From an uncultured Gammaproteobacteria bacterium (GTDB lineage Bacteria > Patescibacteriota > Microgenomatia > Daviesbacterales > UBA10151): a stretch of 64,000 nucleotides of DNA. The position numbers were made by a program, and so were the translations under genes. Below, piece by piece: positions 13,371 through 54,606 of the stretch (the stretch's first letter is position 1; each line of letters starts with the position of its first letter). Below the pieces are notes generated by a model, which was given only the letters and a program-made list of their open reading frames with translations, did not search any database and was not told the origin of the DNA. The stretch spans positions 40,340 through 104,339 of the forward strand of contig CAYMZD010000001.1 of the NCBI GenBank assembly GCA_964394855.1, given 5' to 3'.

Positions 13371-13372
13371 TA

Positions 13373-13449: not shown

Positions 13450-13450
13450 T

Positions 13451-13536: not shown

Positions 13537-13585
13537 TTAGGTTTACCCCGAGCACTTCGGTACACTCAGTGTAAACTTGTCTAGG

Positions 13586-17866: not shown

Positions 17867-17870
17867 AAAG

Positions 17871-40316: not shown

Positions 40317-40331
40317 TGCAGTTTTACTAGC

Positions 40332-40360
40332 GTGTGAACGTAGCACACATCCAAGGTGTG
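40332..40360. repeat. REP-like element (GTGTGAACGTAGCACACATCCAAGGTGTG) downstream of the RAYT gene
   Basis: Three-arm GTGTG/CACAC/GTGTG element, near-identical to the copy inside pheT. Confidence 0.7.
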
Positions 40361-40371
40361 TAATGACTACT

Positions 40372-41073
40372 CTATTCAAAGGGGTTGGATTTGCCGCGCG
40401 GTAAAGGCACATTTTGGCTGATACTACCTGTAGTTTTTTGAGCTTGAAACAATCTCACCAGTATCTTTTGCTCTTCATCAGAAATTTTTGGCAATGCCGC
40501 TTCTACAGAACCCAATTGCTGGGGATTGGAAGCAAAGAAAACTTCAATAGTTAAGTTGGCAGTAACTCCCCCAAATCCTTTAGCTGCTGACAAATCTATG
40601 GAACTAACTTTCATCACCCTAGAAGCTTTTTCTATACTCTCTACCAAACTTTCTAGGCCACTTTTTGAACCGAAGACTTCCAGTTTCATAGTGTAATTTG
40701 ATACTGCAGCAGCAGTGTTGGTTTGTACTTGTCCCAACTGAATTGTATTCAGACTTAAACCTGAACGGACAGTCAGATCTTGTAAAACCCCCACGATATC
40801 AGCAAAATCTTTATCTGGGGGTAGCGCGATAACGGAAATTTGCAATTGTTTTTTTAGCTCCTCTGTATTAATATTATTTAACTCTGCAGCTTTTACTTCT
40901 AGATTTTGCAGGCGTTGGGAAGAATTTTCCAGATTTTCTCTCTCTTTTAAATAACTTTTAAGCTGTGGCAAGATAACTGCTGCAATTAAAAACAAGCTAG
41001 CCACACCAATCAATACCGGGTAAATAATTATTTTATATTTAAGATAAAAGTTTATTAAACTTTCTTTTCTCAT
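40372..41073 (-). CDS. pilO: Type IV pilus assembly protein PilO-like
   Basis: Single N-terminal TM helix, a coiled coil and a periplasmic domain. Position after pilN. Confidence 0.5.
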   Translation of the reverse strand: MRKESLINFYLKYKIIIYPVLIGVASLFLIAAVILPQLKSYLKERENLENSSQRLQNLEVKAAELNNINTEELKKQLQISVIALPPDKDFADIVGVLQDLTVRSGLSLNTIQLGQVQTNTAAAVSNYTMKLEVFGSKSGLESLVESIEKASRVMKVSSIDLSAAKGFGGVTANLTIEVFFASNPQQLGSVEAALPKISDEEQKILVRLFQAQKTTGSISQNVPLPRGKSNPFE

Positions 41074-41612
41074 CTTGCCACCATTTTTAAATTAGCCCTA
41101 AAAATGCCATCTTTTCCCCTAGAAAGACTCTCTATATCTATCTTAGCTACCTTTTCAAAAACCTGATCTGAAGTTAAATTAGTAACTAGATTACTTAAAC
41201 TGGCAGAATTAGAGGCAATTAGAGAGATTAGAATATTAGCAGATTTATCTACTGTCAGAGCGGTGACTACTATTGATGGAGGAATTGTTTTATTAATTAA
41301 ACTATATACTGATGCTTGTTTGGAGGGGGGACTGCTCACTTTAGCGATACTGATTAAGCGGTTTTTTAAGTAGACTAGGCTCACTTCTTTATCTTTAAGT
41401 TGACCAATTTTTTCCTCTGCGGCTTGAGCCTGAATATTCGCTTTGGTAATATTTTGTGATTGAAATATCCGCAAACCGGCAGTGGCTGATGATAAAAAAA
41501 CTAAAACTAGTAGGGCAGAAGTAGATAAAAACTGGACCAAGTGAAATTTAGCTAGTTGTTTTTGACGCTCGGCATCCTCTCTGGGCAACAAGTTAATGCT
41601 TATTTTTTCCAT
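41070..41612 (-). CDS. pilN: Type IV pilus assembly protein PilN-like
   Basis: N-terminal INLLP motif followed by a TM helix. Confidence 0.6.
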   Translation of the reverse strand: MEKISINLLPREDAERQKQLAKFHLVQFLSTSALLVLVFLSSATAGLRIFQSQNITKANIQAQAAEEKIGQLKDKEVSLVYLKNRLISIAKVSSPPSKQASVYSLINKTIPPSIVVTALTVDKSANILISLIASNSASLSNLVTNLTSDQVFEKVAKIDIESLSRGKDGIFRANLKMVAR

Positions 41613-41615
41613 AGA

Positions 41616-42668
41616 TTAGTCCTCTCGCAGAGCCAATCCCACAGCTACAGAATATAAAGATGCATCTTTAGCCAGCTTGACCTTGACATTACTTTCTTTG
41701 GCCAAAAAATACCAAGGATCAGCTTCTTGCACTTCTAGCCCCAAATTACTGGCTAAGTATTGAACTAGCCCGGGAAGTTTAGCCCCTCCACCAGAAAGCA
41801 CCACTCTTTTTATTTGATTTTGAGGGTTTTTCGTTTGGAAAGCTTGAGTGACTCTTCTGGCCTCCTCCACCATCACATCTGTGACTGGTTTTAGCGCTTG
41901 GTAAACCTGTCCCTCCAGCTGATCTGGTAAAATCCCGTAAACTTTTTTGTATTCTTCTGCCTGCATCATCTCAAAATTAAAGTGTCCTGCTATTGCCCTG
42001 GTTAAAGCTAAACCTCCAGTTGAAATAGACCTTGTCAAAAGAATTAAACCTTTTGACACCACTGCAAAATCAGTCGTGGTCGTACCCATCTGAACAATCA
42101 ATGTAGTAGGAGAAAAAGGATTATTACCCACTAATGCCCTGGTGGAGGCGATAATCTCTGTTTCTAAAGCACGGACTTTAACTCCGGCCATCTCCAGCAC
42201 TTTAAGATATTTATTGATAATATTTTTAGGGGATGCCACCACAAATACCACTGTTCGACCACTCTTATTAATTCCTGGGCCTCGCTCACCTTTGGCTCGA
42301 GAAAGAACTTGCCAATTCAAGTTCACCTCGCTGACAGGCAGTGGAATAAATTCTTCTGATGCATATCTAATGGCAGGGGAGAGTTCGGAATCTGAAAGAT
42401 AAGGAAGATCATCAATCACTCTGGTAAAAACTTTTGATTCTGGCAGAGCCGCCACTACTTCTTTATATTCAATCCTGGCAGCTTGAAAAAGTTTTTTAAT
42501 AGCCACAGCCACAGCTTCCAAGTCCAAATCACCATCAGAACTTAAACCTGGCTGTGGTGAACCTATCATCCCCAGGGAGAGTAGCTTGGGAGGGTTATCG
42601 GATATAGACAAAGCCACTGCCTTAATGGAAGAAAAACCAATATCTAAACCAACAGAAGACTTACTCAT
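41616..42668 (-). CDS. pilM: Type IV pilus assembly protein PilM (actin-like ATPase fold)
   Basis: VGLDIGFSSIKAVAL N-terminus and an FtsA/PilM-like architecture. Confidence 0.7.
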   Translation of the reverse strand: MSKSSVGLDIGFSSIKAVALSISDNPPKLLSLGMIGSPQPGLSSDGDLDLEAVAVAIKKLFQAARIEYKEVVAALPESKVFTRVIDDLPYLSDSELSPAIRYASEEFIPLPVSEVNLNWQVLSRAKGERGPGINKSGRTVVFVVASPKNIINKYLKVLEMAGVKVRALETEIIASTRALVGNNPFSPTTLIVQMGTTTTDFAVVSKGLILLTRSISTGGLALTRAIAGHFNFEMMQAEEYKKVYGILPDQLEGQVYQALKPVTDVMVEEARRVTQAFQTKNPQNQIKRVVLSGGGAKLPGLVQYLASNLGLEVQEADPWYFLAKESNVKVKLAKDASLYSVAVGLALRED

Positions 42669-42720
42669 ACGTATTGTTACCTTATTCCATTGTAAATTGA
42701 AACTCTAAGATTGTAAATTG

Positions 42721-44511
42721 TTATTTTATTTGATAAGTTCCTTTAACAAGCGAAAATGAACCGCCGGGGCCTGATGAGAAAAGAGTACTAGATAAACCCT
42801 GCTCATAGTTAATGATTGAGTTGTTGGTCAACGTTATTTTCCAGGCCGTCAGTTCTTTAAACTGATTGTCATTTCCAGGATTAATTATTCCTTTATCAGC
42901 ATAAAAAACTCCACTGTTACCATTGTTGCCAATAGCAATGGCATCTTCGTTGTTGGTCCTTGAATCAAAAGTAGCAAGAGCCATCAGCAGGCTACTTCCT
43001 TGACCAGTCCCTTCTAAATCATTGTTATTCCCCAAAGTTACTTTACCGTCAACCACCACCACTCCAGAGGTGACGCCATACTCTGGAGATAACCTCAATC
43101 TATTATTATTTCCTAGGCTTAAATTACCAGTAATCCAAATTGGAGATTTGACTGTCACAGTACAATTACTATTAAAGCTGACGTTACCGACAATTTTCTT
43201 ACTTTCCAGTACGGAAACACAATTGGTAATATCGCCTAAACTTGTGCCGGCTGCTGCTGCTTGGTTTTTCCACTCTGTAATGTTAGCTTCGGAGATGGGG
43301 AAAACCTTGGGGGGAGAATCAGCTGAACCTGGATGACACTTAGGATTATTACTGCAACTTTGCCCTGAAACTGTGGAATTAATAATTGTCTGATAAAAAG
43401 CTTCATCTATAATAGTTATATTCTCAATGGTATTGGCATAAACATCATTTTGGACTTGAAAATTATTACCTCCCCTGATAGACGTGACAGTACCGCCCAT
43501 ATAGGTCTTAAAGCTTAATTCTCCACTAAATGCATTCCAAGTGGGATTTCCTGTTGACCAGTTGGGGGACCAAAGTGGTAAGCCCCTGGCATAACTTTGG
43601 GCCAGATCATTTTGCCAAATCCAAAAATTGCTGTTATCAGAGGATGTATCAATCATTAACCAATAGCTGGTATTAGCCAGAAGTTGGGGAGAGCTGGAAA
43701 ATGTCACGTCAATCCAGCCGAAACTCGATGTCACCAAACTACCAAATAGAGTACCTGTGGTGATGACTCCATTTTTATCTGGTTTACCATCGTCGTCGCG
43801 CATTATTCTGACTATGACATCAGCAGGGTTCCCTTGTTTTTTGATTTTGAGGGAAATTTTATTGATGGTAGATGTTAAGCTTGGTTTAAAACTTTGAGCC
43901 ACATCTAATCTGACTTCACCGTTAACAGATTTGCCAAAAATAAAGTCATTACAATTACTTCCTTCACAATCCGTCTGTTGATCTGGGTTTGGTTGTATTC
44001 CTCCTGCCACCCAAGCATCTCCCGTAATGACATTATTATTACCAGCAATAATATTACCATTGGAATAAATGGTCCCCTGAACCTGATTATTATTACCAAG
44101 CTCTAAACCCCCTTCGCCAACTTGAATACCATAAACAAAAGATACGCCCACTCCTTTTGAGGCTTCTATTTTGATCGTTCTTTTGACCTTGGGGTCTTCC
44201 TTATTGGGGATATACCCTGTTGCCTCAATAATTTTAGTGACCGTATTTTTGGTAGTAATATCAACAGCATATGCACCACCCCCCAAAGAAGTTTCTGGCT
44301 CACCACTGTAACTGTCACCAGTTTTATTAAGTGAAACTATGGCTTTATCTATACCTGCTTCTGCTAGCGCAGCAGCTTTTTCAGCTTCATAAGAATAGGT
44401 GGTGTTATTAAAGTAAAGTGTGGCTCCGCCAATAAGCGATAAAGAGAAAACAAGCACCACCGCCACTACAATAATAACCAACACAAAAGCTTCTCCTCTT
44501 TCCTTAATCAT
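42721..44511 (-). CDS. Large PilX/PilY-like pilus-associated protein with parallel beta-helix-like GNNN repeats
   Basis: PilX_N-like hydrophobic N-terminus (ERGEAFVLVIIVVAVVLVF). Repeated LGNNN/AGNNN/IGNNG beta-helix-like segments. Confidence 0.5.
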   Translation of the reverse strand: MIKERGEAFVLVIIVVAVVLVFSLSLIGGATLYFNNTTYSYEAEKAAALAEAGIDKAIVSLNKTGDSYSGEPETSLGGGAYAVDITTKNTVTKIIEATGYIPNKEDPKVKRTIKIEASKGVGVSFVYGIQVGEGGLELGNNNQVQGTIYSNGNIIAGNNNVITGDAWVAGGIQPNPDQQTDCEGSNCNDFIFGKSVNGEVRLDVAQSFKPSLTSTINKISLKIKKQGNPADVIVRIMRDDDGKPDKNGVITTGTLFGSLVTSSFGWIDVTFSSSPQLLANTSYWLMIDTSSDNSNFWIWQNDLAQSYARGLPLWSPNWSTGNPTWNAFSGELSFKTYMGGTVTSIRGGNNFQVQNDVYANTIENITIIDEAFYQTIINSTVSGQSCSNNPKCHPGSADSPPKVFPISEANITEWKNQAAAAGTSLGDITNCVSVLESKKIVGNVSFNSNCTVTVKSPIWITGNLSLGNNNRLRLSPEYGVTSGVVVVDGKVTLGNNNDLEGTGQGSSLLMALATFDSRTNNEDAIAIGNNGNSGVFYADKGIINPGNDNQFKELTAWKITLTNNSIINYEQGLSSTLFSSGPGGSFSLVKGTYQIK

Positions 44512-45070
44512 TTCTTAAATTTGCCTCCGTTGTAGCTGTACTTACCTCAAAACTAGCTCCTGCTTTTTGTTTTAAAGTTAAACTTAAACTAACTTTCACT
44601 GCCGCTGTTGGTAAAACTTCCTGACCGTTGGAAGCAAAATATTGAAAAAGTATGCTGTCAACATTGTTTGTTAAAATTAGGTCGGCTGATTTTCTAGAAC
44701 TTTGACTATTGGGTAGTAATTGATAGCGTAGCTTATCAGTCTCTTTTGTATAAACAGCATAATCAAAAAAATCAGTCAAAACAAAACCTGATGCATCAAT
44801 GGAGGGAAGTTTTAAAACTAAGGTGGTAGCAGAACTGGTGTAGCTTTGAGGTGGAGCTTCTGGGAAACCCGAGGCAACTGACTGCGCTCCCTTAATTACC
44901 TCTCTGATATTCTCCATGGAATCATTTAAACCTAAACCTTGAGAAACTCGAGAAGACTGTTGATAAAATAAACCAGTATTATTGACCAAAATTGAAACCA
45001 ACAGCACCGCTACCACTGTCCCCACCGCCATAATGGTCAGGACTTCTACTAAGGTAAAACCACGACTCAT
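44504..45070 (-). CDS. Prepilin-type N-terminal cleavage/methylation domain protein (minor pilin)
   Basis: MSRGFTLVEVL class III signal peptide (G|FTLxE). Confidence 0.7.
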   Translation of the reverse strand: MSRGFTLVEVLTIMAVGTVVAVLLVSILVNNTGLFYQQSSRVSQGLGLNDSMENIREVIKGAQSVASGFPEAPPQSYTSSATTLVLKLPSIDASGFVLTDFFDYAVYTKETDKLRYQLLPNSQSSRKSADLILTNNVDSILFQYFASNGQEVLPTAAVKVSLSLTLKQKAGASFEVSTATTEANLRND

Positions 45071-45465
45071 TGCCCTAAACCCCCTTCAGAAATTAAAGTT
45101 TTTAAAGATATCTCCTGATTCTTACCTTCATTTTTCCAACTAACTTTAACGGTTATTTGTTTAGTATTTTCTCCTTGTGTGCAAATTAAGGGATTGCAGT
45201 CCTCAACTAAAACGCTGCCACTACCAGATGGTAAAAGATTTATTCTGGAATCAGTAATGACAGTTTCCCCATTGGCTAGATTAACAAAACTGATAGCACG
45301 TTTATCTTCTATCTGTTTGGTGGCTATCTCGCGAGCCAAACTCTGATGATTAGCCTTACCAATAAGATTAATAGAGTTGGGAAGATTACCTATTAAAAGT
45401 ACTAAAAATCCCACCAGCACAGTTACTAGTAATATTTCAATTAAAGAAACACCGCGTGAATTCAT
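45067..45465 (-). CDS. Prepilin-type protein (minor pilin)
   Basis: MNSRGVSLIEILLV (G|VSLIE). Confidence 0.65.
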   Translation of the reverse strand: MNSRGVSLIEILLVTVLVGFLVLLIGNLPNSINLIGKANHQSLAREIATKQIEDKRAISFVNLANGETVITDSRINLLPSGSGSVLVEDCNPLICTQGENTKQITVKVSWKNEGKNQEISLKTLISEGGLGQ

Positions 45466-46328
45466 TTAGTAATTTCTCCAGCCGAAAAAATGGCATAGTC
45501 AAAATAAAAAGGTACTACCTTATCCAACTTAAAAACCTGAACTTTCCGCTGTGTTTCCCCTGCAGTACCGGTGGAGGTGACTATTCTGGCTTGAGGCGGC
45601 AGAGAACAGGCATTAGTACCACAACTTCCACCCCACGGCAAAACCGCAAAGGCTTGAGAGGTACTGCTATATAAAATTCTAGCTCTTAGCAGTATTAGGG
45701 TGGGGGTAATCCCAGACAAACTTAAAGAATTACGACAATAAAAGACTCTGTTTGGCCCCATGGTGGTAGAAATTGTTGGCAGAGAATTTGAACAGTTGGC
45801 AGACACGTCCTGAAAACCATTGGTACTGGCTCTTCCGGAATTTGAATCAAAATAAAACTTTTTGCTCTGGTAAGCTCCGGCGACAGAGTAAATAACAGTC
45901 ACCTCTATAGCCGGTCGCTCCTGCGCATTTTGAATATTTGGCATACCCCAGGCAATCTCCAGCCATGGTTGATCATAATATTTAATTAATGTGACAGGAT
46001 CTGCCAGCCAAACCTGCGCAATTTCTTCTTTGCTAATAGGCGGATATTCCAAACTCTGATTTGCTGCTGGCAAATTGGCTTTAATATCTACTCCAGCTGT
46101 AGCATTGGATAAATCAGCTACTTGGAAACTGGAATCAGAGGTAAAATTTTGTCTCAAAGCCCGTTCCAGACCTGCTTCAGCCGCAGAAAAGGCCCTGGAA
46201 GATTGTTCAACTTTGGATGACGAAGATATATCTAGCAGACTTCTTTGAATGACAGAAATGCCTATGGCCAAAGCTACTGTCATCACCAAAACTAGTATTA
46301 AAATTATCTGACCGTTTTGTTTTGCCAT
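45462..46328 (-). CDS. PilX_N-like pilus-associated protein
   Basis: MAKQNGQIILILVLVMTVALAIG hydrophobic N-terminus. Located within the pilin array. Confidence 0.45.
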   Translation of the reverse strand: MAKQNGQIILILVLVMTVALAIGISVIQRSLLDISSSSKVEQSSRAFSAAEAGLERALRQNFTSDSSFQVADLSNATAGVDIKANLPAANQSLEYPPISKEEIAQVWLADPVTLIKYYDQPWLEIAWGMPNIQNAQERPAIEVTVIYSVAGAYQSKKFYFDSNSGRASTNGFQDVSANCSNSLPTISTTMGPNRVFYCRNSLSLSGITPTLILLRARILYSSTSQAFAVLPWGGSCGTNACSLPPQARIVTSTGTAGETQRKVQVFKLDKVVPFYFDYAIFSAGEITK

Positions 46329-46332
46329 ACTA

Positions 46333-46896
46333 TTATCTTAGCTCAATTGTGGTAGTAAATGTAACTTCATCTGTTTGAGCCAAGATTGCCTGTGCTGCTT
46401 CCACGGCTGGACCTAAAATAAAATTAATTGTCACTAGATCCTTGTAGCCAGGAGCCTTGTCTCTTTTAAAATAGCCTGATCTCACTGACACCCCTTTTTT
46501 AGGATCATTATCTGTTAAAAGCTCTGGTGACACAGATACATCGGTACTGCTACACCAAGTGCTACTTGATACGGCTGTGGGTTTATCTCTTTCAATAAAA
46601 CCATTTGCACTGGGGGGTGATTTAAAACGGAAGCGCTCATACAGTCCATTTTTGACAATTATGACTGTATCAGAGGGAGTACTGGTTAGCGGACAAACAA
46701 CCAAGTCAGCACCTCTGATAGTTTTATCCATTATTTCCAAAGAGGCCTGACCGTTTTGTTTTATAGAGGCCAAAACCTTGGCCTTGTCGCCTCCACGAAT
46801 TGAGCTGATAAAAATTTCCGTGATCACTATACCCATAATGGCCACTACCGCAGTCACCACTAAGATTTCTACCAGAGTAAATCCCTTTTCACTCAT
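46333..46896 (-). CDS. Prepilin-type protein (minor pilin)
   Basis: MSEKGFTLVEILVV. Confidence 0.7.
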   Translation of the reverse strand: MSEKGFTLVEILVVTAVVAIMGIVITEIFISSIRGGDKAKVLASIKQNGQASLEIMDKTIRGADLVVCPLTSTPSDTVIIVKNGLYERFRFKSPPSANGFIERDKPTAVSSSTWCSSTDVSVSPELLTDNDPKKGVSVRSGYFKRDKAPGYKDLVTINFILGPAVEAAQAILAQTDEVTFTTTIELR

Positions 46897-47438
46897 AATT
46901 TTCTTAAAACTGTGATCAATCTAGATTCATGTGGTCCAGCAAAATCAGTCCATTGAACTACCGCAGTGACCTTTTTTTCTTTATCAAAATTTAAGGGTTC
47001 ATCAGATAAAATGATTATTCTTTTAAAGAGCATCTTTTCTGGGGGAGGTGGAACAGGTTCAGCGGCAGATTCAGGAAAGGTGGTGCTCGAAGCAACCCAA
47101 ATTAGGTCACTACTGGTTGCATTGAGCTTAAAATAACAATCTCCGGCACTACCACAACCACTATAGATGGGATACTCCCAGATAGCTCCAGAGGGATTGC
47201 CATTCCAGGAATTAACTGCCCCGGGTATTAAAACAGTACTATTTCTATCCCTACCAGTTCTGACCTTTTCTATCCCTTCTTGAGCCAATTTAGTAGCCTG
47301 TGCTTGATTTTTGGCAATTTGAGCATTGCGTAAACTAAAAATGGCCGCAAAGACCAAGGCCCCCACTACCAAAATAGCTACCGCTATAACTATGATCACT
47401 TCCAATAAACTTTGTCCCTTTTCCCTGCTACTGAACAT
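46893..47438 (-). CDS. Prepilin-type protein (minor pilin)
   Basis: SSREKGQSLLEVIIV (G|QSLLE). Confidence 0.65.
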   Translation of the reverse strand: MFSSREKGQSLLEVIIVIAVAILVVGALVFAAIFSLRNAQIAKNQAQATKLAQEGIEKVRTGRDRNSTVLIPGAVNSWNGNPSGAIWEYPIYSGCGSAGDCYFKLNATSSDLIWVASSTTFPESAAEPVPPPPEKMLFKRIIILSDEPLNFDKEKKVTAVVQWTDFAGPHESRLITVLRKL

Positions 47439-48018
47439 AAACTCTACCTCCTTTTTCTATTATCACCTGTTTGGTGGAGGTTGTCTTGGTATTTTTTAAC
47501 TGAACTTGAAATTGATTACAAGTTTGATAAGTCACCCGGTCAATAGACGACTCAAAATAAATAGCATTAGTTAAAGGTTTAAAAATAACCGCCGCATATG
47601 AGGTAACATCAGTGGGGAAAGTATTTTCACAACCCGCACTGCCACTGTCAAAAATCTTTTCAATAATGATACTTGAGGGTAATTCATATTTATTGATCAC
47701 TGATTGAGTGAGCACAGCTCCATTGAAATAATAACAGTGGGTTTGAACTATATACTTGCCTTGCTGTTTATAAAAATCAATTTTCCATTGGTCAACAGGC
47801 TGATTAGCACATTTAAGATTAGTTGAAGCATTAGTTTGGGCTGTTCTTAAATTGCTCTGCAAATCTAACAGTGCATTATTTAGAGCTTGTTCCTCTCCAA
47901 AATTCCTAAAACTGGGAATGGCCACCACTCCCAGTATGGCTACCACTGAAATCACCACCAAAAGTTCAATTAGAGTAAAGGCATTCGGGGCAGCTTTGCC
48001 CATATTTCCATTGTACAT
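47428..48018 (-). CDS. Prepilin-type protein. The start was moved to MYNGNMGKAAPNAFTLIELL.
   Basis: NAFTLIELLVV class III signal. Confidence 0.6.
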   Translation of the reverse strand: MYNGNMGKAAPNAFTLIELLVVISVVAILGVVAIPSFRNFGEEQALNNALLDLQSNLRTAQTNASTNLKCANQPVDQWKIDFYKQQGKYIVQTHCYYFNGAVLTQSVINKYELPSSIIIEKIFDSGSAGCENTFPTDVTSYAAVIFKPLTNAIYFESSIDRVTYQTCNQFQVQLKNTKTTSTKQVIIEKGGRVYVQ

Positions 48019-48043
48019 TGTGCAAGTATCCATTGTACACTCC

Positions 48044-48544
48044 CTAGGGAGCTGTGACCGCCAGGTTATATCCTGCTGGTAAAGGAGAGGCGCAATTTGT
48101 CGGATTAGAAATCCCGGTAGGATTCTCCAGATTGGCATACAAACAATAGCCGTTACAGATTGTGATGTCATTATCGCAGCCAACACCAGAAGAAGAATTG
48201 TATGGCACATAGAGATATTGAGAATTTGAGGAAAGAGGATCGACCGGCACCCTGTTCATGTAAGTTTTAGCACCCACCGGATCTGTCAAGTTGCAGGGAC
48301 TGGTGGTATTAAAGGCCACTTTTCCGGCGCTACAGGTCCCACCGTTAAATAACGAATAATTAGATTGATCGTTATGATATTGTTCCAAGGCGGATTGGAT
48401 GGTTTTTAAATCAGATTGCCTCTTGGCATCTCGGCCCTGCCTCAAAACTGTTTGATAGGAAATAAATCCAATCACAGAAAGGATGGCAATAATACTGATG
48501 GCTACCAAAAGTTCAATTAGGGTAAAACCACCATTTTTACTCAC
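48044..48544 (-). CDS. Prepilin-type protein, probable GTG start giving a VSKNGGFTLIELL leader
   Basis: GGFTLIELLVAISIIAIL. The first ATG would give an atypical 24-aa leader. Confidence 0.6.
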   Translation of the reverse strand: MSKNGGFTLIELLVAISIIAILSVIGFISYQTVLRQGRDAKRQSDLKTIQSALEQYHNDQSNYSLFNGGTCSAGKVAFNTTSPCNLTDPVGAKTYMNRVPVDPLSSNSQYLYVPYNSSSGVGCDNDITICNGYCLYANLENPTGISNPTNCASPLPAGYNLAVTAP

Positions 48545-48548
48545 AGCT

Positions 48549-49013
48549 CTATTGTTGGTTGGCCTTGCAGTATGTTCCACCAGCTTCCAAGGTGGCACAA
48601 ATTATCCAGGTATTTTGGTTATATGGTGGTTGGCCAGGCCCCAGAGCAGTACCAGTAGAGTTATTACAAGTTCCACTAGCAGTCCAGCAATACCTGACAG
48701 AAGCAGCAGTCTGTGGATCTAGGGGTAGTGAACTATCAACAAACCAGTCTGGATTAGAACAATTATAACTATATGTGGGAAAGGGCGAGTTGGCACACAG
48801 GCCTGGATATTTCCCGACATCAAACTTACCATAATGAACTTCCATGGCTTTAGATATAGCATCAATATCTCCTCTCCTTTTGGCATCTCTGGCATTTTTT
48901 TGGACACCGCTAAATACGGTGATGCCAATCACAGAAAGAATGGCAATAATGGAAACTACGACTAACAGTTCAATCAGAGTAAAGCCCCTTGAAGTGGGCA
49001 GAAATTTTCTCAT
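48549..49013 (-). CDS. Prepilin-type protein
   Basis: SRGFTLIELLVVVSIIAIL. Confidence 0.7.
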   Translation of the reverse strand: MRKFLPTSRGFTLIELLVVVSIIAILSVIGITVFSGVQKNARDAKRRGDIDAISKAMEVHYGKFDVGKYPGLCANSPFPTYSYNCSNPDWFVDSSLPLDPQTAASVRYCWTASGTCNNSTGTALGPGQPPYNQNTWIICATLEAGGTYCKANQQ

Positions 49014-49060
49014 CTATAACTATTATTTAGGAAAAATTAATACTTTGTCAAGTGCCAATC

Positions 49061-49951
49061 CTAAAATATCAACTTAAGTATTTGGTTGCCCCAGAAAAGA
49101 ACCGTTAGCGAGCCCAATACTAAAAACGGCCCAAAGGGGATGGTTTGTCCAAAACTTTTTTTACCCATGATGACTAAACCAACCGCCACCACTGCTCCTG
49201 ATAAAAATGCCAAAAGAACTGCCAAAAGGGCTAAAGGAAAACCCAATCCCAGTCCTATAAAAGCCCCCAACTTCACATCACCCCCACCCATACCTTTTCC
49301 CCGGGTTAACATAATTAGCAGTAAAAAAAATCCAGCAATACCTATCCCTAAAAGAATCGACCAAAAGATAGGTTCTATAATCATGACTATATGCCTTTTT
49401 AGGTAATCGTTGTGAGGAGGCAAAAGAAACCTGCCCAGAGAATCACCCGCCAGATAGTAGTAGAGATACCAGATTTTATAAACAGTCACTGCTACCAATG
49501 AGGCAAAAGTGATAATAATAGCCGGTATCATCACTTTATCTGGAATAAGGTTTTTCTTTAAATCAGTCAAGGTGACTACTGCTAAAACAGTGATAAAATA
49601 TATTTTAAAGACTAGCTCATAGAAAAAAATGGTTAGTTTAAATTGATTACCAAGAGGTGGTGAGTTGGTCAAAGATTGTCCAAAAAGCATTGCTATTAAA
49701 AGGCCCAAAAATATCTCCACCCATAAATAGTTCACGCCTATTTTTTGGTGGCAAAAACGACATCTGCCTTTGAGCAAAACATAGGACAAAACAGGAAAAA
49801 GGTCGTACCACCTAATAGCATTCTTGCATTTAGGACAATACGACCTTCCTAAAAAAGATACTTTTTTTAGACTTCTCTCGGCCAAAGCTTGCGCTAAACT
49901 TCCTATGATACTACCTATAATAAATCCGAAAAAAAGCCAAAGTACTAACAC
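49061..49951 (-). CDS. pilD: Prepilin peptidase (A24 family) PilD
   Basis: N-terminal CPKCKN...CRFCHQ zinc-binding tetracysteine and polytopic membrane domain with GGGDVKL. Confidence 0.8.
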   Translation of the reverse strand: MLVLWLFFGFIIGSIIGSLAQALAERSLKKVSFLGRSYCPKCKNAIRWYDLFPVLSYVLLKGRCRFCHQKIGVNYLWVEIFLGLLIAMLFGQSLTNSPPLGNQFKLTIFFYELVFKIYFITVLAVVTLTDLKKNLIPDKVMIPAIIITFASLVAVTVYKIWYLYYYLAGDSLGRFLLPPHNDYLKRHIVMIIEPIFWSILLGIGIAGFFLLLIMLTRGKGMGGGDVKLGAFIGLGLGFPLALLAVLLAFLSGAVVAVGLVIMGKKSFGQTIPFGPFLVLGSLTVLFWGNQILKLIF

Positions 49952-49957
49952 TTAAAT

Positions 49958-50491
49958 TTAGTAAGCACACCCAGCCACTACTCCAATCAACTTGAGATTG
50001 GAACCGACTTCATACTTGGTATCATCATCACCGCCATCTTTAGTCATCTTATCTTTTTGTTGATCAGATTCCAAGATAGCATTGATTTCCCAAGCGTCAT
50101 TATCGGCACAATAAGCATAATGAGCGGTAGCATCATTAGTTGGATCAGCTGGTAGGGTTGGTACCGAAACGCTCTTTTGGCTACCTAAATTCACCTTCAC
50201 CCATCCTGTACCATCAGATGGTCTAGAGTTTGCATCCGAACTCTTCCCAGAGCAGGGATAGGCTGCTCCACTACATAAGATTGCGCCACCGGAGGTAGTT
50301 GCCTCTTGGACAGCCACATTGATGGCTTGTTGCAAATTAGCTAAATCAGTTAACCTTGCAGAGTCACGACCACGCCGAGTTAACTCGAGCGGGTTAATAA
50401 TAAGTACTACTACTGCTGCCAAAATAGCGATGATAGCTATCACCACCAAAAGTTCTACTAAAGTGAAACCACGGGCAGATTTTCTAGTCAA
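49958..50491 (-). CDS. Prepilin-type protein (candidate major pilin)
   Basis: SARGFTLVELLVVIAIIAILAAV. Its position beside pilC and pilD suggests the major subunit. Confidence 0.65.
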   Translation of the reverse strand: MTRKSARGFTLVELLVVIAIIAILAAVVVLIINPLELTRRGRDSARLTDLANLQQAINVAVQEATTSGGAILCSGAAYPCSGKSSDANSRPSDGTGWVKVNLGSQKSVSVPTLPADPTNDATAHYAYCADNDAWEINAILESDQQKDKMTKDGGDDDTKYEVGSNLKLIGVVAGCAY

Positions 50492-50609
50492 ACCTTCTCA
50501 CCTCCTTACTTTTTGTTTATGACTAAATCTATTGTAGACATATCTTTATTAAGTTAGTCAAGAGGGAAAAATTAAAATAACGTTGTCAGCTTTAGACGAA
50601 GTCGCAAGC

Positions 50610-51812
50610 TTAAAACGAAGTTGTAAGCTTATAAATGGGCAAAATGATAGAGAGCACCAAAAATGTCACACCAATACCCAAAACTATCAAAATAATTGGT
50701 TCAATAGCCACAGTTAAGTTCTTCACTAAATGGTCTGATTCCGACTCAAAATATTCGGAAAGTTTATAAAATATTTCATCAACTTTTCCTGTCTCTTCTC
50801 CCACCCGCACCATTTGTCCCACAATTTTGGGGAAAACCGGTAAACTCAAAAGTTGAGCGGAAAAATTCAAACCTCGTTCTACTCCAGAATAAGATTCTTT
50901 GAGAGCCTGTTTAAAAACACTATTTTGAGTGACGTTTTCCACAATGTTAATAGATTCCAGCAGGGGGATGCCAGCTGCAGTTAAAAGACCAAATGTACGA
51001 GTGGAGGTGGTTAAAGTAACATTAGTGATAACCTTACCCACAATGGGAATACGAAGATAGAGTCTATCCAAGGCAAATCGGCCTTGGGGAGTTTGAGCCC
51101 ATCTTTTTAGTGCTATGATAGAAACAATTAATAAGGCCAACATGACCCACCAATAATTAATAAATAAATTTGATGTGGCTATTAATATTTTGGTGGGTAA
51201 GGGAAGATCCAAAGTTGATTCTTTATAGAGAGATGTCAGTTTAGGAATAACAAAGGTCATCATAATAATCACCACCGCCACCATCATAGAGACTACTACT
51301 ATTGGATAAATCAATGCTCCTCTCACTCTGGCGCGAAATTCTCGATCCTTTTCCAAACTATCTGCCATTTTAAGTAAGACTTCATCTAATTTTCCAGATG
51401 CTTCACCGCTTTTAACCAGATTAATGTAAAGAGGAGGAAAAATGTCTTTGTGTCGGGAAAGCGATAGGGCAAAAGGAAATCCTCCTTTGATATCATTGGA
51501 AATTTCCCCCAAAATCTTTTTTAATTTTTTATTAGTTTGTTGCTCCTCTAAAATATCCACAGATTCTGAAAGTGTTAGGCCGGCACTAACCATGGTAGCT
51601 AGTTGTCTGGTCATGGTCACTAGTTCCGAGAAGCTGACTCTATCAAAAAGTCTGGCCAAAAAATTATCTCCACTTTCAGCTTTAGGAGTCACAGAGATAA
51701 CCACCAAACCCCTTTTACGAAGCAATAAAACTGCCGTGTGTAAATCAACTGATTCTATGACACCTTGATGTTCCTCCCCCTGTTTATCTTTGGCTTTATA
51801 AAAAAAATTCAT
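50610..51812 (-). CDS. pilC: Type IV pilus platform protein PilC (GspF family)
   Basis: Two GspF-type repeats and three TM segments. Typical size, about 400 aa. Confidence 0.8.
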   Translation of the reverse strand: MNFFYKAKDKQGEEHQGVIESVDLHTAVLLLRKRGLVVISVTPKAESGDNFLARLFDRVSFSELVTMTRQLATMVSAGLTLSESVDILEEQQTNKKLKKILGEISNDIKGGFPFALSLSRHKDIFPPLYINLVKSGEASGKLDEVLLKMADSLEKDREFRARVRGALIYPIVVVSMMVAVVIIMMTFVIPKLTSLYKESTLDLPLPTKILIATSNLFINYWWVMLALLIVSIIALKRWAQTPQGRFALDRLYLRIPIVGKVITNVTLTTSTRTFGLLTAAGIPLLESINIVENVTQNSVFKQALKESYSGVERGLNFSAQLLSLPVFPKIVGQMVRVGEETGKVDEIFYKLSEYFESESDHLVKNLTVAIEPIILIVLGIGVTFLVLSIILPIYKLTTSF

Positions 51813-51830
51813 ATATAAAATAAAGTGATT

Positions 51831-52883
51831 TCAGCCAAGTAGCTTATCTAATAAATCTGGTCTTAGGGCATATCGCATGGCCACTTCTGCGGAGATCTTC
51901 CCAGCCTTGACCAAAGTTGCCAGAGAATATTCTAAACTCATCATACCCAACTCGGCAGAGGTTTGAATTAAATTATCCAAAAGATAAGTCTTTCCTTCCC
52001 TGATGATATTTCTGGTAGCTGGCACACCAAATAAAATTTCCGTGGCCAATGTTCTACCGGGGGATAGGGTAGGCACCAGTCGTTGTGATATAATTGCTTC
52101 CAAAGTGGCAGCCAGCTGCAAGCGGATTTGTGGCTGCTGATTTTGTGGAAAGACATCAATAATACGATCAATACTTTGAGAGGCGGAATTAGTGTGTAAG
52201 GTGGCAAAAACTAAATGACCAGTTTCAGCAATAGTCATGGCAGAGGAGATAGTTTCCAAATCGCGCATCTCGCCAATTAGTACCACATCTGGATCTTCTC
52301 GCAAGATTGCCTTTAAGGCATTGCTCCAAGATTTTGTATCTGAATAAATTTCTCTTTGGGAAACTAAAGCTTTTCCTCGAGGATAAACATATTCAATGGG
52401 GTCCTCCACAGTAATGATATGAGCTGGCCTCTGGTGATTAATACTGTTAATGAAGGCGGCTAAAGAGGTAGATTTTCCCTGACCAGTGGGGCCTGTCACC
52501 AGAATAAAACCCTGTTTTAAGTCAGTAATCTTACTCAATACCTGCGGCATACCTAACTCCGCCAGACTGCGAATAGTCAGAGGTATCATTCTCAAGGCTG
52601 CCGCAGGATAATTTTTTTGTTTGTAAAGATTGACTCGGAAACGTCCTTTTCCCTCAAAATCAAAAGAAAAATCTAGTTCCCAATTTTGAAAAAAAATATT
52701 TTTTTGTGTTTCTGTCACTAACGAGGTAATCATGCTTTCCACACCGGATGGGGAAAGCAGGTCTTCACCAGGAACAGGAAAAAGTTCTCCCTGAATTCGC
52801 ATCAAAGGAGGAAAACCAACCACTAAGTGCAGATCTGAAGCATTCTTACTGATAGTTAGCTCAAGTAATTGTTGAATAGTCAT
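51831..52883 (-). CDS. pilT: Twitching motility retraction ATPase PilT
   Basis: VTGPTGQGKSTSLA Walker A and AETGHLVFATLHTNSA His box. No N-terminal GSPII_E N domain, which separates it from PilB. Confidence 0.8.
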   Translation of the reverse strand: MTIQQLLELTISKNASDLHLVVGFPPLMRIQGELFPVPGEDLLSPSGVESMITSLVTETQKNIFFQNWELDFSFDFEGKGRFRVNLYKQKNYPAAALRMIPLTIRSLAELGMPQVLSKITDLKQGFILVTGPTGQGKSTSLAAFINSINHQRPAHIITVEDPIEYVYPRGKALVSQREIYSDTKSWSNALKAILREDPDVVLIGEMRDLETISSAMTIAETGHLVFATLHTNSASQSIDRIIDVFPQNQQPQIRLQLAATLEAIISQRLVPTLSPGRTLATEILFGVPATRNIIREGKTYLLDNLIQTSAELGMMSLEYSLATLVKAGKISAEVAMRYALRPDLLDKLLG

Positions 52884-52884
52884 G

Positions 52885-54606
52885 TTATTCTTCTGCCACC
52901 CTTAAGACCTCTTCCAAAGAGGTCACCCCTTCTAAAACTTTTAAATAACCGTCTTGTTTCATCGTCATCATGCCAGTCTGGCTGGCTGATTCTTCTATCT
53001 CTTGGGAGGTGGCGTGTTCTAAAATCTGCTTGGCGATGTTTTCCGAAATAACTAGCACCTCAAAAATACCAATCCTCCCCAAATAGCCAACATGATTACA
53101 CTGCACACATCCTTGGCCCTTAAATAATTTTAAGTAAGGTGCATCTTTAGATTGAGGAAGTAAACGACCCAGTACTGCTTTAATGTTCTCCACCACTTCA
53201 GGTGGTGCCTCAAACTCAATGCGACAGTTGGGGCAAATCTTTCTCACCACCCTTTGAGCAGCTATGGCATTAACTGCAGAAGCCAACAAAAATGGCTCTG
53301 CTCCCATATCTAAAAGTCTGGGTAGTGCCCCGGCAGCAGTGTTGGTATGTAAAGTGGAAAAGACCTGATGACCAGTTAGAGCAGCCTGAATTGCCAAATC
53401 AGCAGTTTCACTGTCACGAATTTCTCCCACCATAACAATATTTGGATCTTGGCGCAGAAATGAGCGCAGGGCCGAGGCAAAAGTTAAACCAATAGCTGGG
53501 TTAACCTGAACCTGATTAACGCCAGGAATTTGATATTCAACTGGATCTTCAATAGTTAAAACATTAACCGATGTCTTAGAAATTTTGGTCAAGACAGAAT
53601 AAAGGGTGGTAGTTTTACCTGAACCAGTTGGGCCGCAGACTAAAATGATACCATGAGGCCGAAGCAGCTGGCTTTCCAGATTTTTTAAGGCTAAACCCCG
53701 CAGCCCTAACTCTTGTAGGGTGGGGGCGGCCACGCTTTTGGGAAGAAGTCTCATCACCACTTTTTCTCCAAAAACCGTAGGAATGGTGGAGATACGCAGA
53801 TCTACCACATTTTTGTTATAAGTAAAAGTAAAACGACCATCCTGGGGTAGGCGTTTTTCATCTATTTTTAAAACTGCCAAAATCTTGATGCGGGAAACTA
53901 GGGCATCATGTACTCCTTTGGGTAAAATTATTTTTTCATGCAAAATGCCATCAATCCGAAAACGTACTCTGGTTTTCTCCTCCATTGGTTCAATGTGAAT
54001 ATCTGAAGCGCGAGTTTTAATGGCATATTCTAAAAGTTGGTTAATAATATTGGCCACCGGTGCTTCTCTGATAACCTCGGGAGCTTCTATGGCCACTTCT
54101 TGAGGATTAATGGCCGAAACTTCTTTTAGGGCTGATGTCACCTCTGTGGTTAAATTTTGAGCATATTGGTCGCTGACCGCTTTTAATATATCCTCCGGTA
54201 AACCTAAAAATGGTTTAATCCTCATGCCGCTTTTTTTCTCAATAAATTGAATTACTTGTAAATCTAGAGGGTCTGCCATGGCTACATAAAGCTCCTCACC
54301 CTTGCGATCAAAAGGAACTAAAATATATCTTCTGGCCACTGGTTCTGGAATATAATTAAGAATATCAGCGGGGATGGCTTTACCTTCAAGTTTGACAAAG
54401 GGAACATTCAAAAGTGTTGCTCTGGCTGCAGCTATTTTTTCCGTCGGCACCAAATTATGTTCAACTAGGATTTTTTCCGTAGACTGACCCGTATTGATAC
54501 TCTCCAATTTGATGGCTGAAAGTTGGTCTTGAGTCAAAAGACCCTGTTGAAAAAGAATATCGGCAATGGAGGGATTTTCCTGTGTTTGAGCAGTTTGGTT
54601 GGGCAT
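52885..54606 (-). CDS. pilB: Type IV pilus assembly ATPase PilB (GspE family). The start was set at MPNQTAQ.
   Basis: N-terminal GSPII_E N domain. VCGPTGSGKTTTL Walker A. CPNC...C tetracysteine motif. Confidence 0.8.
   Translation of the reverse strand: MPNQTAQTQENPSIADILFQQGLLTQDQLSAIKLESINTGQSTEKILVEHNLVPTEKIAAARATLLNVPFVKLEGKAIPADILNYIPEPVARRYILVPFDRKGEELYVAMADPLDLQVIQFIEKKSGMRIKPFLGLPEDILKAVSDQYAQNLTTEVTSALKEVSAINPQEVAIEAPEVIREAPVANIINQLLEYAIKTRASDIHIEPMEEKTRVRFRIDGILHEKIILPKGVHDALVSRIKILAVLKIDEKRLPQDGRFTFTYNKNVVDLRISTIPTVFGEKVVMRLLPKSVAAPTLQELGLRGLALKNLESQLLRPHGIILVCGPTGSGKTTTLYSVLTKISKTSVNVLTIEDPVEYQIPGVNQVQVNPAIGLTFASALRSFLRQDPNIVMVGEIRDSETADLAIQAALTGHQVFSTLHTNTAAGALPRLLDMGAEPFLLASAVNAIAAQRVVRKICPNCRIEFEAPPEVVENIKAVLGRLLPQSKDAPYLKLFKGQGCVQCNHVGYLGRIGIFEVLVISENIAKQILEHATSQEIEESASQTGMMTMKQDGYLKVLEGVTSLEEVLRVAEE

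What the first reader, a model, noticed from the sequence alone, without database searches (positions are those of the whole stretch)
40372..54606. 14-kb type IV pilus island with eight prepilin-like genes and a 596-aa beta-helix PilX/PilY-like protein
Complete inner-membrane machinery (PilB, PilT, PilC, PilD, PilM/N/O) with no secretin. The pilin repertoire is unusually large. The large protein at 42721-44511 combines a PilX_N-like N-terminus with GNNN parallel-beta-helix repeats, a candidate tip adhesin. In episymbiotic CPR bacteria such pili are implicated in host attachment and DNA uptake. The cluster abuts the REP/RAYT locus.
Basis: partly seen in the sequence, partly recalled or inferred. 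Interest (0 to 1): 0.5.

Follow-up and report, generated by a model that had tools for sequence, protein, structure and literature searches.

The report
CPR type IV pilus locus, ComZ-like tip pilin
This is the standard secretin-less type IV pilus gene cluster of a Candidatus Daviesbacteria (CPR) bacterium, and its 596-residue protein is predicted to be a pilus-tip subunit carrying a large beta-solenoid and sugar-binding-like head, a candidate receptor for host surfaces or DNA.

Summary
Window 40372-54606 (minus strand) is one tightly packed 17-gene cluster: PilB, PilT, PilC, pilin p1, PilD, seven further prepilins (p2-p8), a 288-aa PilX_N-like protein, the 596-aa protein (BIG) and PilM/N/O. 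No secretin was found in the window. The organism is Candidatus Daviesbacteria.

Eight genes carry a G(-1)/E(+5) prepilin signal. Eight is also the most common and lowest count in 25 complete related loci, so the repertoire is not unusual for the clade.

BIG is as conserved as PilC and PilM. Its ligand (glycan or DNA) is unresolved.

Verdict: a known kind of system with an undescribed ComZ-like tip-pilin variant. Moderate interest.

The parts
52885..54606 (-). pilB, the extension ATPase (573 aa from the internal ATG; the longest ORF runs to 54717)
   Evidence: Pfam T2SSE 3.4e-133 and MshEN 2.2e-18. Walker A GPTGSGKTT and a CPNC...CVQC tetracysteine are visible in the translation. Start choice.
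51831..52883 (-). pilT, the retraction ATPase (350 aa)
   Evidence: Pfam T2SSE 6.6e-45. Walker A GPTGQGKST, with no N-terminal MshEN domain and no tetracysteine.
50610..51812 (-). pilC, the platform protein (400 aa)
   Evidence: Pfam T2SSF, two stretches, 4.7e-62.
49958..50491 (-). p1, a prepilin (177 aa, MTRKSARG|FTLVE) and a candidate major pilin
   Evidence: N_methyl 1.6e-09. Strong AAGGAGGTGA ribosome-binding site and a 118-bp upstream gap. It is the best-conserved pilin in relatives, median 68% identity.
49061..49951 (-). pilD, the prepilin peptidase / N-methyltransferase (296 aa)
   Evidence: A24_N_bact 1.3e-22 and Peptidase_A24 1.3e-08. CxxC...CxxC and GGGDVK motifs are present in the translation.
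48549..49013 (-). p2, a prepilin (154 aa, GspG/PilA-like); this family varies in copy number among relatives
   Evidence: N_methyl 9.5e-08. TIGR01710 GspG 7.5e-09, below cutoff. Relatives carry 1-5 p2-like copies. The best sigma-70-like site of the region lies at 49051-49022, which is weak evidence.
48044..48544 (-). p3, a prepilin (GG|FTLIE); the ORF extends to 48598 and the probable start is the GTG at 48544
   Evidence: N_methyl 4.1e-08. GspG model 1.4e-10 over residues 24-130, below cutoff. Start analysis.
47428..48003 (-). p4, a prepilin (MGKAAPNA|FTLIE), GspH/FimU-like; the ORF extends to 48210 and the probable start is the ATG at 48003
   Evidence: N_methyl 1e-04. TIGR01708 GspH 3.8e-07 and ComGD 7e-06, below cutoffs. 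Start analysis.
46893..47438 (-). p5, a minor prepilin (KG|QSLLE), PilV/GspI-like, and a paralogue of p7
   Evidence: TIGR02523 PilV 9e-04. hhalign of p7 against p5: probability 98%, E 2.3e-13, 124 columns, full length.
46333..46896 (-). p6, a minor prepilin (KG|FTLVE), GspJ-like by paralogy with p8
   Evidence: hhalign of p8 against p6: probability 98%, E 1.4e-13, 173 columns, full length. The control pairs align only over the N-terminal helix.
45462..46328 (-). 288-aa PilX_N-like protein lacking E5 (NG|QIILI), the GspK/PilX-class member of the first trio
   Evidence: PilX_N 1.2e-04, 22.4 bits against a 25.5-bit cutoff. None of 47 orthologues has E at +5. Its N-terminus aligns with that of BIG, hhalign probability 94.5%.
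45067..45465 (-). p7, a small minor prepilin (132 aa, RG|VSLIE), GspI/PilV-like, first member of the conserved trio
   Evidence: Weak NCBIfam hits to XpsI 6.7e-04, PilV and ComGE. It lies immediately upstream of p8-BIG in nearly every locus that includes that region, in both Microgenomates and Parcubacteria.
44504..45070 (-). p8, a minor prepilin (188 aa, RG|FTLVE), GspJ-like, second member of the trio
42721..44511 (-). BIG, the 596-aa ComZ-like GspK-class tip pilin (whole gene)
44146..44511 (-). BIG residues 1-122: N-terminal signal (RG|EAFVL, no E5), an alpha-1 helix of about 60 residues and a four-stranded sheet, forming the pilin-like domain
43498..43896 (-). BIG residues 206-338: a jelly-roll (choice-of-anchor R, CBM-like) domain inserted in the solenoid
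42724..43497 (-). BIG residues 339-596: the C-terminal beta-solenoid with a flanking helix (408-421) and a highly conserved C-terminal tail
41616..42668 (-). pilM (350 aa)
   Evidence: Pfam PilM_2 3.3e-50.
41070..41612 (-). pilN (180 aa)
   Evidence: Pfam PilN 1.7e-04, 22.0 bits against a 22.8-bit cutoff. Its position between pilM and pilO is conserved.
40372..41073 (-). pilO (233 aa)
   Evidence: Pfam PilO 1.5e-08.

Best explanation
The locus encodes a complete monoderm-type (secretin-less) type IVa-like pilus of a Candidatus Daviesbacteria bacterium.

Machinery. PilD cleaves and methylates the eight G|xxxxE prepilins. PilM/N/O and PilC form the membrane platform. PilB extends the filament and PilT retracts it.

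Priming. Assembly is primed by a GspI/J/K-type minor-pilin complex made of p7 (I-like), p8 (J-like) and the 596-aa protein BIG (K-like, no E5). BIG therefore sits at the very tip.

The head. BIG's pilin-like domain carries a head of about 470 residues. The head is an ice-binding-protein-type beta-solenoid, as in Thermus ComZ, with a CBM-like jelly-roll inserted in it. It is too bulky for the filament body. It is presented at the tip as the binding module, for a host-surface glycan or for DNA.

Second trio. A paralogous trio (p5, p6 and the 288-aa PilX_N protein), together with the GspH-like p4, forms a second tip or priming set. It is used either alternatively or stacked beneath the first.

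Shown here: gene content, signal motifs, predicted folds, paralogy, synteny and conservation. Inferred: tip location, the order of assembly, processing of BIG by PilD, and the ligand.
For: - Machinery domains are present.
- Prepilin motifs are present in the window and across families. p1-p8 have G-1/E+5 in nearly all of 28-71 orthologues each. The 288-aa protein has E5 in 0 of 47 and BIG in 4 of 72.
- The ComZ paper describes exactly this combination and argues for a tip location on steric grounds (PMC6561018).
- Synteny: p7-p8-BIG are adjacent in nearly every locus that covers that region (80 fetched). This includes Kaiserbacteria, Doudnabacteria, Paceibacteria and Curtissbacteria, where the trio sits next to PilB-PilC or PilM.
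- Paralogy of the two trios is full-length and pair-specific.
- BIG is conserved like the cytoplasmic machinery: median 60% identity, against PilC 66%, PilM 66%, PilD 55%, PilN 39% and PilO 33%. In distant CPR, BIG at 37% exceeds PilC at 32%. This fits an indispensable assembly role.
- In the one CPR system studied genetically, TM7x locus one has the same parts list. Its largest minor pilin, PilX1, has a jelly-roll domain, has no predicted PilD signal, and is proposed as a tip protein (PMC11623550).
Against: - Nothing here is experimental, and no filament has been seen for this organism.
- The resemblance to ComZ is in fold only. Profiles of the family find no PDB sequence even at E<=10.
- The ComZ-defining topology has the solenoid inserted before the last pilin strand. 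In BIG this rests on a C-terminal strand (586-594) modelled at pLDDT below 50.
- p7's GspI-likeness rests only on size, position, sub-threshold NCBIfam hits and paralogy to a PilV-like protein.
- No complex prediction could be run.
- Strong sequence conservation of BIG is atypical for a host-specific adhesin.
Confidence: 0.7

Rival explanations
1. BIG, with p8, is specifically a ComZ-type DNA receptor. The pilus tip binds extracellular DNA and PilT-driven retraction delivers it to a ComEC channel. This would supply nucleotides or genes to an organism that cannot make them. It is a sub-case of the tip-pilin model with DNA as the ligand.
For: - ComZ is the best structural match of BIG, and ComZ with PilA2 binds DNA (PMC6561018).
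- p8's second-best match is a Thermus competence-locus pilin, TTHA1219.
- High conservation of BIG across CPR classes fits an invariant ligand such as DNA.
- Type IV pili plus competence proteins are reported as widespread in CPR (PMC6744442).
- PilT is present.
Against: - There is no sequence homology to ComZ, so the DNA-binding lysines cannot be mapped.
- The ComZ authors found no electrostatic signature to transfer.
- BIG carries a CBM-like jelly-roll that ComZ lacks, which points to glycans.
- No comEC, comEA or dprA lies among the roughly 60 window ORFs scanned.
- In TM7x the dispensable pilus did not affect competence, and the essential one could not be tested.
Confidence: 0.25
2. BIG is a tip lectin or adhesin. 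The jelly-roll and solenoid head binds a polysaccharide on a host cell, such as cell-wall glycan or peptidoglycan, to establish episymbiosis, and retraction pulls the cells together. This is also a sub-case of the tip-pilin model.
For: - The choice-of-anchor R domain passes its NCBIfam cutoff.
- Its fold matches CBM6, CBM36, esterase CBMs and phage baseplate or receptor-binding proteins.
- TM7x PilX1 has a jelly-roll resembling lectins and CBMs, and sugars inhibit host binding (PMC11623550).
Against: - Host-specific adhesins usually diversify, whereas all BIG domains are uniformly conserved.
- Some CPR homologues lack the jelly-roll entirely, so it is an accessory rather than the core function.
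- No host is known for Daviesbacteria.
Confidence: 0.35
3. BIG is a membrane-anchored beta-helix enzyme, such as a polysaccharide lyase or depolymerase, or a general surface protein. On this view it merely sits in the pilus operon and is not a pilus subunit.
For: - BIG has no hit above threshold to any pilin Pfam model.
Against: - No enzyme family was hit in Pfam or NCBIfam, even at E<=1, across 35 members.
- The N-terminal helix plus sheet matches GspK.
- BIG has an invariant Gly before the helix and the AEAG(I/V)DKA motif shared with the PilX_N protein.
- Adjacency to GspI- and GspJ-like genes is maintained across CPR classes.
Confidence: 0.05

Closest known systems
ComZ of Thermus thermophilus (PDB 6QVI), the competence-pilus tip pilin encoded in the pilA1-pilA2-pilA3-comZ-pilA4 locus
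   Same: - A GspK-like pilin domain is fused to a large triangular beta-solenoid of the ice-binding-protein type.
- It lacks the canonical E5.
- It is not recognised by pilin predictors.
- It is encoded among GspI/J/H-like minor pilins.
- It is too bulky for the filament body.
   Different: - No detectable sequence homology.
- BIG has an extra jelly-roll domain of about 130 residues inserted in the solenoid.
- The host is a secretin-less, monoderm-like CPR bacterium rather than a diderm.
- DNA binding is untested.
- The insertion topology is not confidently modelled.
GspK / XcpX / PilX-class minor (pseudo)pilins and the GspI-GspJ-GspK tip complex (PDB 3CI0, 5VTM)
   Same: - There is a three-gene small / medium / large module.
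- The large member lacks E5.
- The p8 model matches GspJ proteins best.
   Different: - GspK's alpha-helical calcium-binding insertion is replaced by a beta-solenoid plus jelly-roll.
- NCBIfam GspK, GspI and GspJ models are hit only far below their cutoffs.
- The system builds a retractile pilus (PilT is present), not a type II secretion pseudopilus.
Nanosynbacter lyticus TM7x T4P-1 locus and its minor pilin PilX1 (PMC11623550 / PMC12206443)
   Same: - It is a CPR bacterium.
- Its locus has PilM/N/O, PilB, PilT, PilC, PilD and several pilins.
- The largest minor pilin lies last in the pilin array, has a jelly-roll (lectin/CBM-like) domain and has no predicted PilD signal.
- That pilin is proposed as a tip protein.
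   Different: - Gene order differs, with pilMNO first.
- TM7x has five pilins in the locus, against ten pilin-like genes here.
- A beta-solenoid is not described for PilX1.
- Homology between PilX1 and BIG was not tested here.
Modular pilins of Streptococcus sanguinis (PilB with a vWA module, PilC with a lectin module) and Caldicellulosiruptor tapirins
   Same: - These are monoderm type IV pili whose minor pilins carry grafted adhesion modules.
- The S. sanguinis PilB pilin module is the fifth hit of p8.
   Different: - The grafted folds differ.
- S. sanguinis modular pilins keep E5 and can sit in the filament body.
- To my knowledge, tapirins are not pilin-fold proteins.

Membership tests
Type IVa-like pilus system, monoderm/CPR type | PilB-type extension ATPase (T2SSE with an N-terminal MshEN/GspE_N domain) | tested here: met
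   T2SSE 444 bits and MshEN 66 bits.
Type IVa-like pilus system, monoderm/CPR type | PilT retraction ATPase | tested here: met
   T2SSE 154 bits in a 350-aa protein with no N-terminal domain.
Type IVa-like pilus system, monoderm/CPR type | PilC platform protein, PilD prepilin peptidase and PilM/N/O alignment proteins | tested here: met
   All hit their Pfam models. PilN is 0.8 bit under its cutoff but conserved in position.
Type IVa-like pilus system, monoderm/CPR type | Prepilins with a class III signal (G/A at -1, E at +5, hydrophobic helix) | tested here: met
   Eight genes in the window. The motif is nearly universal in their orthologues.
Type IVa pilus of diderm bacteria | PilQ secretin (with PilP) | tested here: not met
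   No Secretin hit among about 60 window ORFs, nor in the 10-kb flanks of related loci by homology to window genes. PilQ absence in CPR is published (PMC6744442). The rest of the genome was not searched.
GspK/PilX-class tip minor pilin (for BIG) | Pilin-like N-terminus with Gly before a hydrophobic helix and no E5 | tested here: met
   RG|EAFVL in the window. G6 is invariant, and +5 is L/I/V in most of 72 orthologues.
GspK/PilX-class tip minor pilin (for BIG) | Alpha/beta pilin fold similar to GspK | tested here: met
GspK/PilX-class tip minor pilin (for BIG) | Co-encoded with GspI-like and GspJ-like partners | tested here: met
GspK/PilX-class tip minor pilin (for BIG) | Passes the curated family model (NCBIfam GspK equivalog or Pfam PilX_N) | tested here: not met
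   GspK scores 13.8 bits against a 130-bit cutoff. The window protein has no PilX_N hit; 8 of 35 homologues hit PilX_N at E<=1.
GspK/PilX-class tip minor pilin (for BIG) | Cleavage by the prepilin peptidase and physical presence at the pilus tip | not testable with these tools
   This needs N-terminal sequencing or mass spectrometry of sheared pili, and immuno-EM or cryo-ET.
ComZ-like competence tip pilin | Pilin domain plus an ice-binding-protein-type triangular beta-solenoid | tested here: met
ComZ-like competence tip pilin | [quoted passage not shown] | tested here: inconclusive
   The model has a terminal strand at 586-594 after the solenoid, but at pLDDT below 50. The tail is the most conserved segment.
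ComZ-like competence tip pilin | Sequence homology to ComZ | tested here: not met
   Family profiles A1 and A8 find no PDB chain at E<=1 and E<=10 respectively.
ComZ-like competence tip pilin | DNA binding and a requirement for transformation | not testable with these tools
   This needs biochemistry or genetics.
PilY1 | C-terminal beta-propeller, with or without a vWA domain, and non-pilin | tested here: not met
Choice-of-anchor R domain (NF041539) | Score above the curated cutoff | tested here: met
   41 bits against a 30-bit cutoff, residues 214-334.
Pectate/polysaccharide lyase-type beta-helix enzymes | Family model hit or a close fold match with a catalytic site | tested here: not met

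The most novel reading that the evidence does not exclude
The p7-p8-BIG trio is the ancestral, near-universal tip complex of CPR (Patescibacteria) type IV pili. Its ComZ-like solenoid head is the primary receptor through which these auxotrophic ultrasmall bacteria capture extracellular DNA or nucleic acid, or a conserved host envelope polymer. The Daviesbacteria duplication into two I/J/K trios would then let one machine build two functionally distinct pili.
Probability: 0.2. Interest if true: 0.7.

Novelty: new variant of a known kind. Interest (0 to 1): 0.4.

Why it matters
CPR bacteria make up a large share of bacterial diversity. Those cultivated so far all live attached to other microbes and cannot make many building blocks. 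Their type IV pili are the leading candidates for host attachment and DNA uptake, but the molecule at the pilus tip that does the binding is unknown outside one Saccharibacteria strain.

This locus points to a concrete candidate. It is a well-conserved three-gene module, the GspI-like, GspJ-like and ComZ-like solenoid pilins, and it is shared by Microgenomates and Parcubacteria. It can be expressed, modelled as a complex and tested for glycan or DNA binding.

The cluster as a whole is ordinary for this lineage and should not be read as an unusual island.

Tried and rejected
- **AFDB Foldseek search.** The afdb50 library was not available.
- **Structure prediction of p8 with locus-derived orthologues.** I repeated it with database homologues.
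- **PDB sequence searches.** Profiles of BIG found nothing. Profiles of p7 and p8 found only the generic N-terminal pilin helix.
- **PilY1-like reading.** Rejected, because there is no propeller or vWA signal.
- **Lyase or tailspike reading.** Rejected as the primary explanation, because fold scores are weak and no enzyme family is hit.
- **Ice-binding function.** Considered only because of the fold and judged implausible as a function; the ComZ authors reached the same conclusion for ComZ.
- **Promoter and terminator scan.** Counts did not exceed shuffled controls, so it cannot identify the major pilin. p1, p2 and p3 remain candidates.
- **Repeat search.** It found no REP array adjoining the cluster. 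There are only short GTGTG/CACAC palindromes in the 55-bp pilO-RAYT spacer.
- **Literature searches.** No paper in the held library both mentions ComZ and ranks among the CPR papers returned. None contains DUF7305 or 'choice-of-anchor R'. This is a limited search, not proof of novelty.
- **Homology between BIG and TM7x PilX1.** This could not be tested, because no TM7x sequence was held.

Full report
**1. The observation**

ORF listing shows 17 collinear minus-strand genes from 54717/54606 down to 40372. Most junctions overlap by 4-11 nt, so this is one compact operon-like block.

Pfam identifies:
- PilB (T2SSE 3.4e-133 plus MshEN).
- PilT (T2SSE 6.6e-45).
- PilC (two T2SSF repeats).
- PilD (A24_N_bact plus Peptidase_A24).
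- PilM (PilM_2 3.3e-50).
- PilN (0.8 bit under its cutoff).
- PilO.

The finding's right-hand coordinate corresponds to the internal ATG of PilB, which removes an overlap with holB.

Eight ORFs have a class III signal with G or A at -1 and E at +5. The longest ORFs of p3 and p4 overlap upstream genes, and their real starts are probably internal, at 48544 and 48003. Two more proteins, of 288 aa and 596 aa, have Gly followed by a hydrophobic helix but no E5. The 596-aa protein contains four GNNN motifs and one GNDN motif.

About 60 window ORFs were scanned. None is a secretin or a competence gene; the neighbours are housekeeping genes. A Y1-transposase (RAYT-type) gene lies convergent to pilO.

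**2. Organism and context**

The 596-aa protein is identical to hypothetical protein HY387_00860 of a Candidatus Daviesbacteria MAG. Daviesbacteria belong to the Microgenomates group of Patescibacteria/CPR. Published comparative work already reports that CPR genomes co-localise PilB, PilT, PilC, PilM/N/O, PilD and pilins and lack PilQ (PMC6744442). In Nanosynbacter lyticus TM7x, such a locus builds an essential pilus (PMC11623550). The cluster as such is therefore a known kind of system.

**3. Is the pilin repertoire unusual?**

A scan of one genome per species with the BIG alignment returned 80 loci. Matching their ORFs to the window proteins shows one gene order in about 45 Daviesbacteria/Microgenomates loci: PilB-PilT-PilC-p1-PilD-(p2)n-p3-p4-p5-p6-PilX_N-p7-p8-BIG-PilM-N-O.

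Only the p2-like gene varies in number, from 1 to 5 copies. In 25 loci that span PilC to PilM, the count of E5 prepilins is 8 in 16 loci, 9 in 3, 10 in 5 and 11 in 1. The window therefore has the clade's baseline number.

**4. The 596-aa protein (BIG)**

*Sequence level.* It has no Pfam hit at E<=0.01. It passes the NCBIfam 'choice-of-anchor R' domain model at residues 214-334 (41 bits against a 30-bit cutoff). Among 35 family members, 8 hit PilX_N. Another 8 hit DUF7305 over the C-terminal solenoid, just below the cutoff.

*Structure level.* With a 20-sequence alignment, AlphaFold2 gave pLDDT 80. The model has these parts:
- A 60-residue N-terminal helix.
- A four-stranded sheet (residues 70-119).
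- Beta-rich solenoid turns.
- A beta-sandwich.
- More solenoid with one flanking helix (408-421).
- A final strand of low confidence.

Foldseek places the central domain with CBM6, CBM36, esterase CBMs and phage baseplate proteins.

*Comparison with ComZ.* The ComZ paper (PMC6561018) describes the same combination: a GspK-like pilin domain with an ice-binding-protein-like solenoid inserted before the last strand. ComZ has no E5 and is not recognised by pilin predictors. The authors place it at the tip for steric reasons, and it binds DNA together with PilA2.

BIG differs from ComZ in two ways. There is no detectable sequence homology. BIG also has an inserted jelly-roll, which shorter homologues of 391-473 aa lack, together with adjoining solenoid residues, about 175-352/380 in all. 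The PilY1 comparison is not supported.

**5. The partners**

p7 (132 aa) and p8 (188 aa) lie immediately upstream of BIG in nearly every locus that covers that region. This includes Kaiserbacteria (Parcubacteria group), Doudnabacteria, Paceibacteria and Curtissbacteria. In those genomes the trio sits next to PilB-PilC or PilM, while the other pilins of the Daviesbacteria locus are absent.

p7 gives only sub-threshold hits to XpsI/GspI, PilV and ComGE. The trio has the small / medium / large-without-E5 pattern of GspI-GspJ-GspK.

**6. Two trios**

Profile-profile comparisons give these results:
- p7 aligns full-length with p5: probability 98%, 124 columns.
- p8 aligns full-length with p6: probability 98%, 173 columns.
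- The N-terminus of BIG aligns with that of the 288-aa protein, including the shared AEAG(I/V)(D/E)KA motif: probability 94.5%.

The crossed controls, p7 against p6 and p8 against p5, align only over the N-terminal helix. The locus thus holds two paralogous I/J/K-type sets in tandem, preceded by a GspH-like p4. Across families, p1-p8 orthologues almost always have E5, the 288-aa family never does, and BIG almost never does.

**7. Conservation**

The table gives the identity of orthologues to the window proteins.

| Protein | Median identity, Daviesbacteria-type loci | Median identity, distant CPR |
|---|---|---|
| BIG | 60% | 37% |
| PilC | 66% | 32% |
| PilM | 66% | 25% |
| PilD | 55% | - |
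| PilN | 39% | - |
| PilO | 33% | - |
| Other minor pilins | 35-54% | - |
| p1 | 68% | - |

Conservation is even across BIG's domains, and the C-terminal tail is the most conserved part. This argues for an indispensable structural or priming role, or for a conserved ligand. It argues against a rapidly diversifying host-specific adhesin.

**8. Most likely mechanism**

- *Shown:* parts list, motifs, predicted folds, paralogy, synteny.
- *From established knowledge of GspI/J/K and PilVWX complexes:* E5-less subunits cap the filament and prime assembly.
- *Inferred:* p7-p8-BIG prime and cap the pilus. The solenoid/jelly-roll head is the tip binding module. PilB and PilT cycles extend and retract it.

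The ligand is open. I rate glycan at about 0.35 and DNA at about 0.25, conditional on the tip model, which I rate at about 0.7. The second trio may prime a second filament type, since p1, p2 and p3 are all major-pilin-like, or it may stack under the first. Multiple core minor-pilin sets per organism appear in the literature: a 2026 cyanobacterial preprint surfaced, though I saw only its title and abstract.

**9. Novelty and verdict**

The cluster is a typical CPR type IV pilus locus. The family of BIG is large, with more than 700 clusters at 50% identity and E<1e-30. It is unnamed in the source databases apart from one 'choice-of-anchor R' label. I found no paper linking ComZ-like pilins to CPR in the held library.

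I class it as a new variant of a known kind, namely modular GspK-class tip pilins. Interest is moderate at 0.4: useful and testable, but not surprising to a pilus specialist.

Noticed in passing
window 39648-40316 (+); relatives L011, L012, L013, L018, L023, L036, L042 (after pilO) and L014, L017, L018, L058 (inside the pilin array): The RAYT-type Y1 transposase gene sits convergent to pilO at the same position in at least seven related genomes, so it looks vertically inherited rather than a recent insertion. In four other relatives a RAYT copy lies inside the variable p2/p3 pilin region. This may relate to the p2 copy-number changes.
   Followed up: partly
window 40317-40371: The 55-bp spacer between the stops of the RAYT gene and pilO holds nested GTGTG...CACAC...GTGTG palindromes. 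These could be a REP-like element or a bidirectional terminator.
   Followed up: no
window 4521-4545 and 5654-5678: Two perfect 25-nt direct repeats (CGCAATAATCGCGCAGGAAATCACG) closely bracket the Fic/DOC-family gene at 4550-5608. This suggests a small inserted or mobile unit.
   Followed up: no
window 16793-16824 and 25334-25365: A 32-nt palindrome-containing sequence (TATCCCACC...GGTGGGATA core) occurs twice in inverted orientation at 94% complementarity. It is a candidate REP element for the RAYT.
   Followed up: no
window 53-2203 (+): A DUF11-domain protein, a 318-aa protein with no family hit and a sortase lie in a row. They may form a second, sortase-dependent surface protein or pilus system in the same genome.
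   Followed up: no
L001-L013, L024, L027, L031, L058, L060 and other 'binchicken' contigs: Many MAG records titled 'uncultured Gammaproteobacteria bacterium' carry the complete Daviesbacteria-type pilus locus at about 60% protein identity. Those titles are evidently placeholder mislabels. The 'uncultured Candidatus Saccharibacteria' titles of the same series should be treated with the same caution.
   Followed up: partly
L072:9789-10997 and L076:9460-10653, with the ORFs that follow them: Homologues of BIG that lack the jelly-roll insert (about 400 aa) are followed directly by very large E5-type prepilins of 547 and 662 aa. This may be a different way of attaching a binding module to the pilus.
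   Followed up: no
window 49022-49051 (-): The best sigma-70-like match of the region (TTGACA-18-AATAAT, 11 of 12) lies just upstream of p2, the copy-number-variable pilin. The scan as a whole was not enriched over shuffles, so this is only a hint about which pilin is most expressed.
   Followed up: no
window 35304-36677 (-): A 457-aa ORF has no Pfam hit at E<=1e-4. It is the largest unannotated protein in the window outside the pilus cluster.
   Followed up: no
window 12534-13670, 17870-17951, 18682-18758: There is a cluster of tRNA genes (Gly, Phe, Val, Leu, Leu) plus nearby Leu and Val genes. The two tRNA-Val genes, on opposite strands, account for the 77-nt inverted repeat I1 (88% complementary).
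   Followed up: yes
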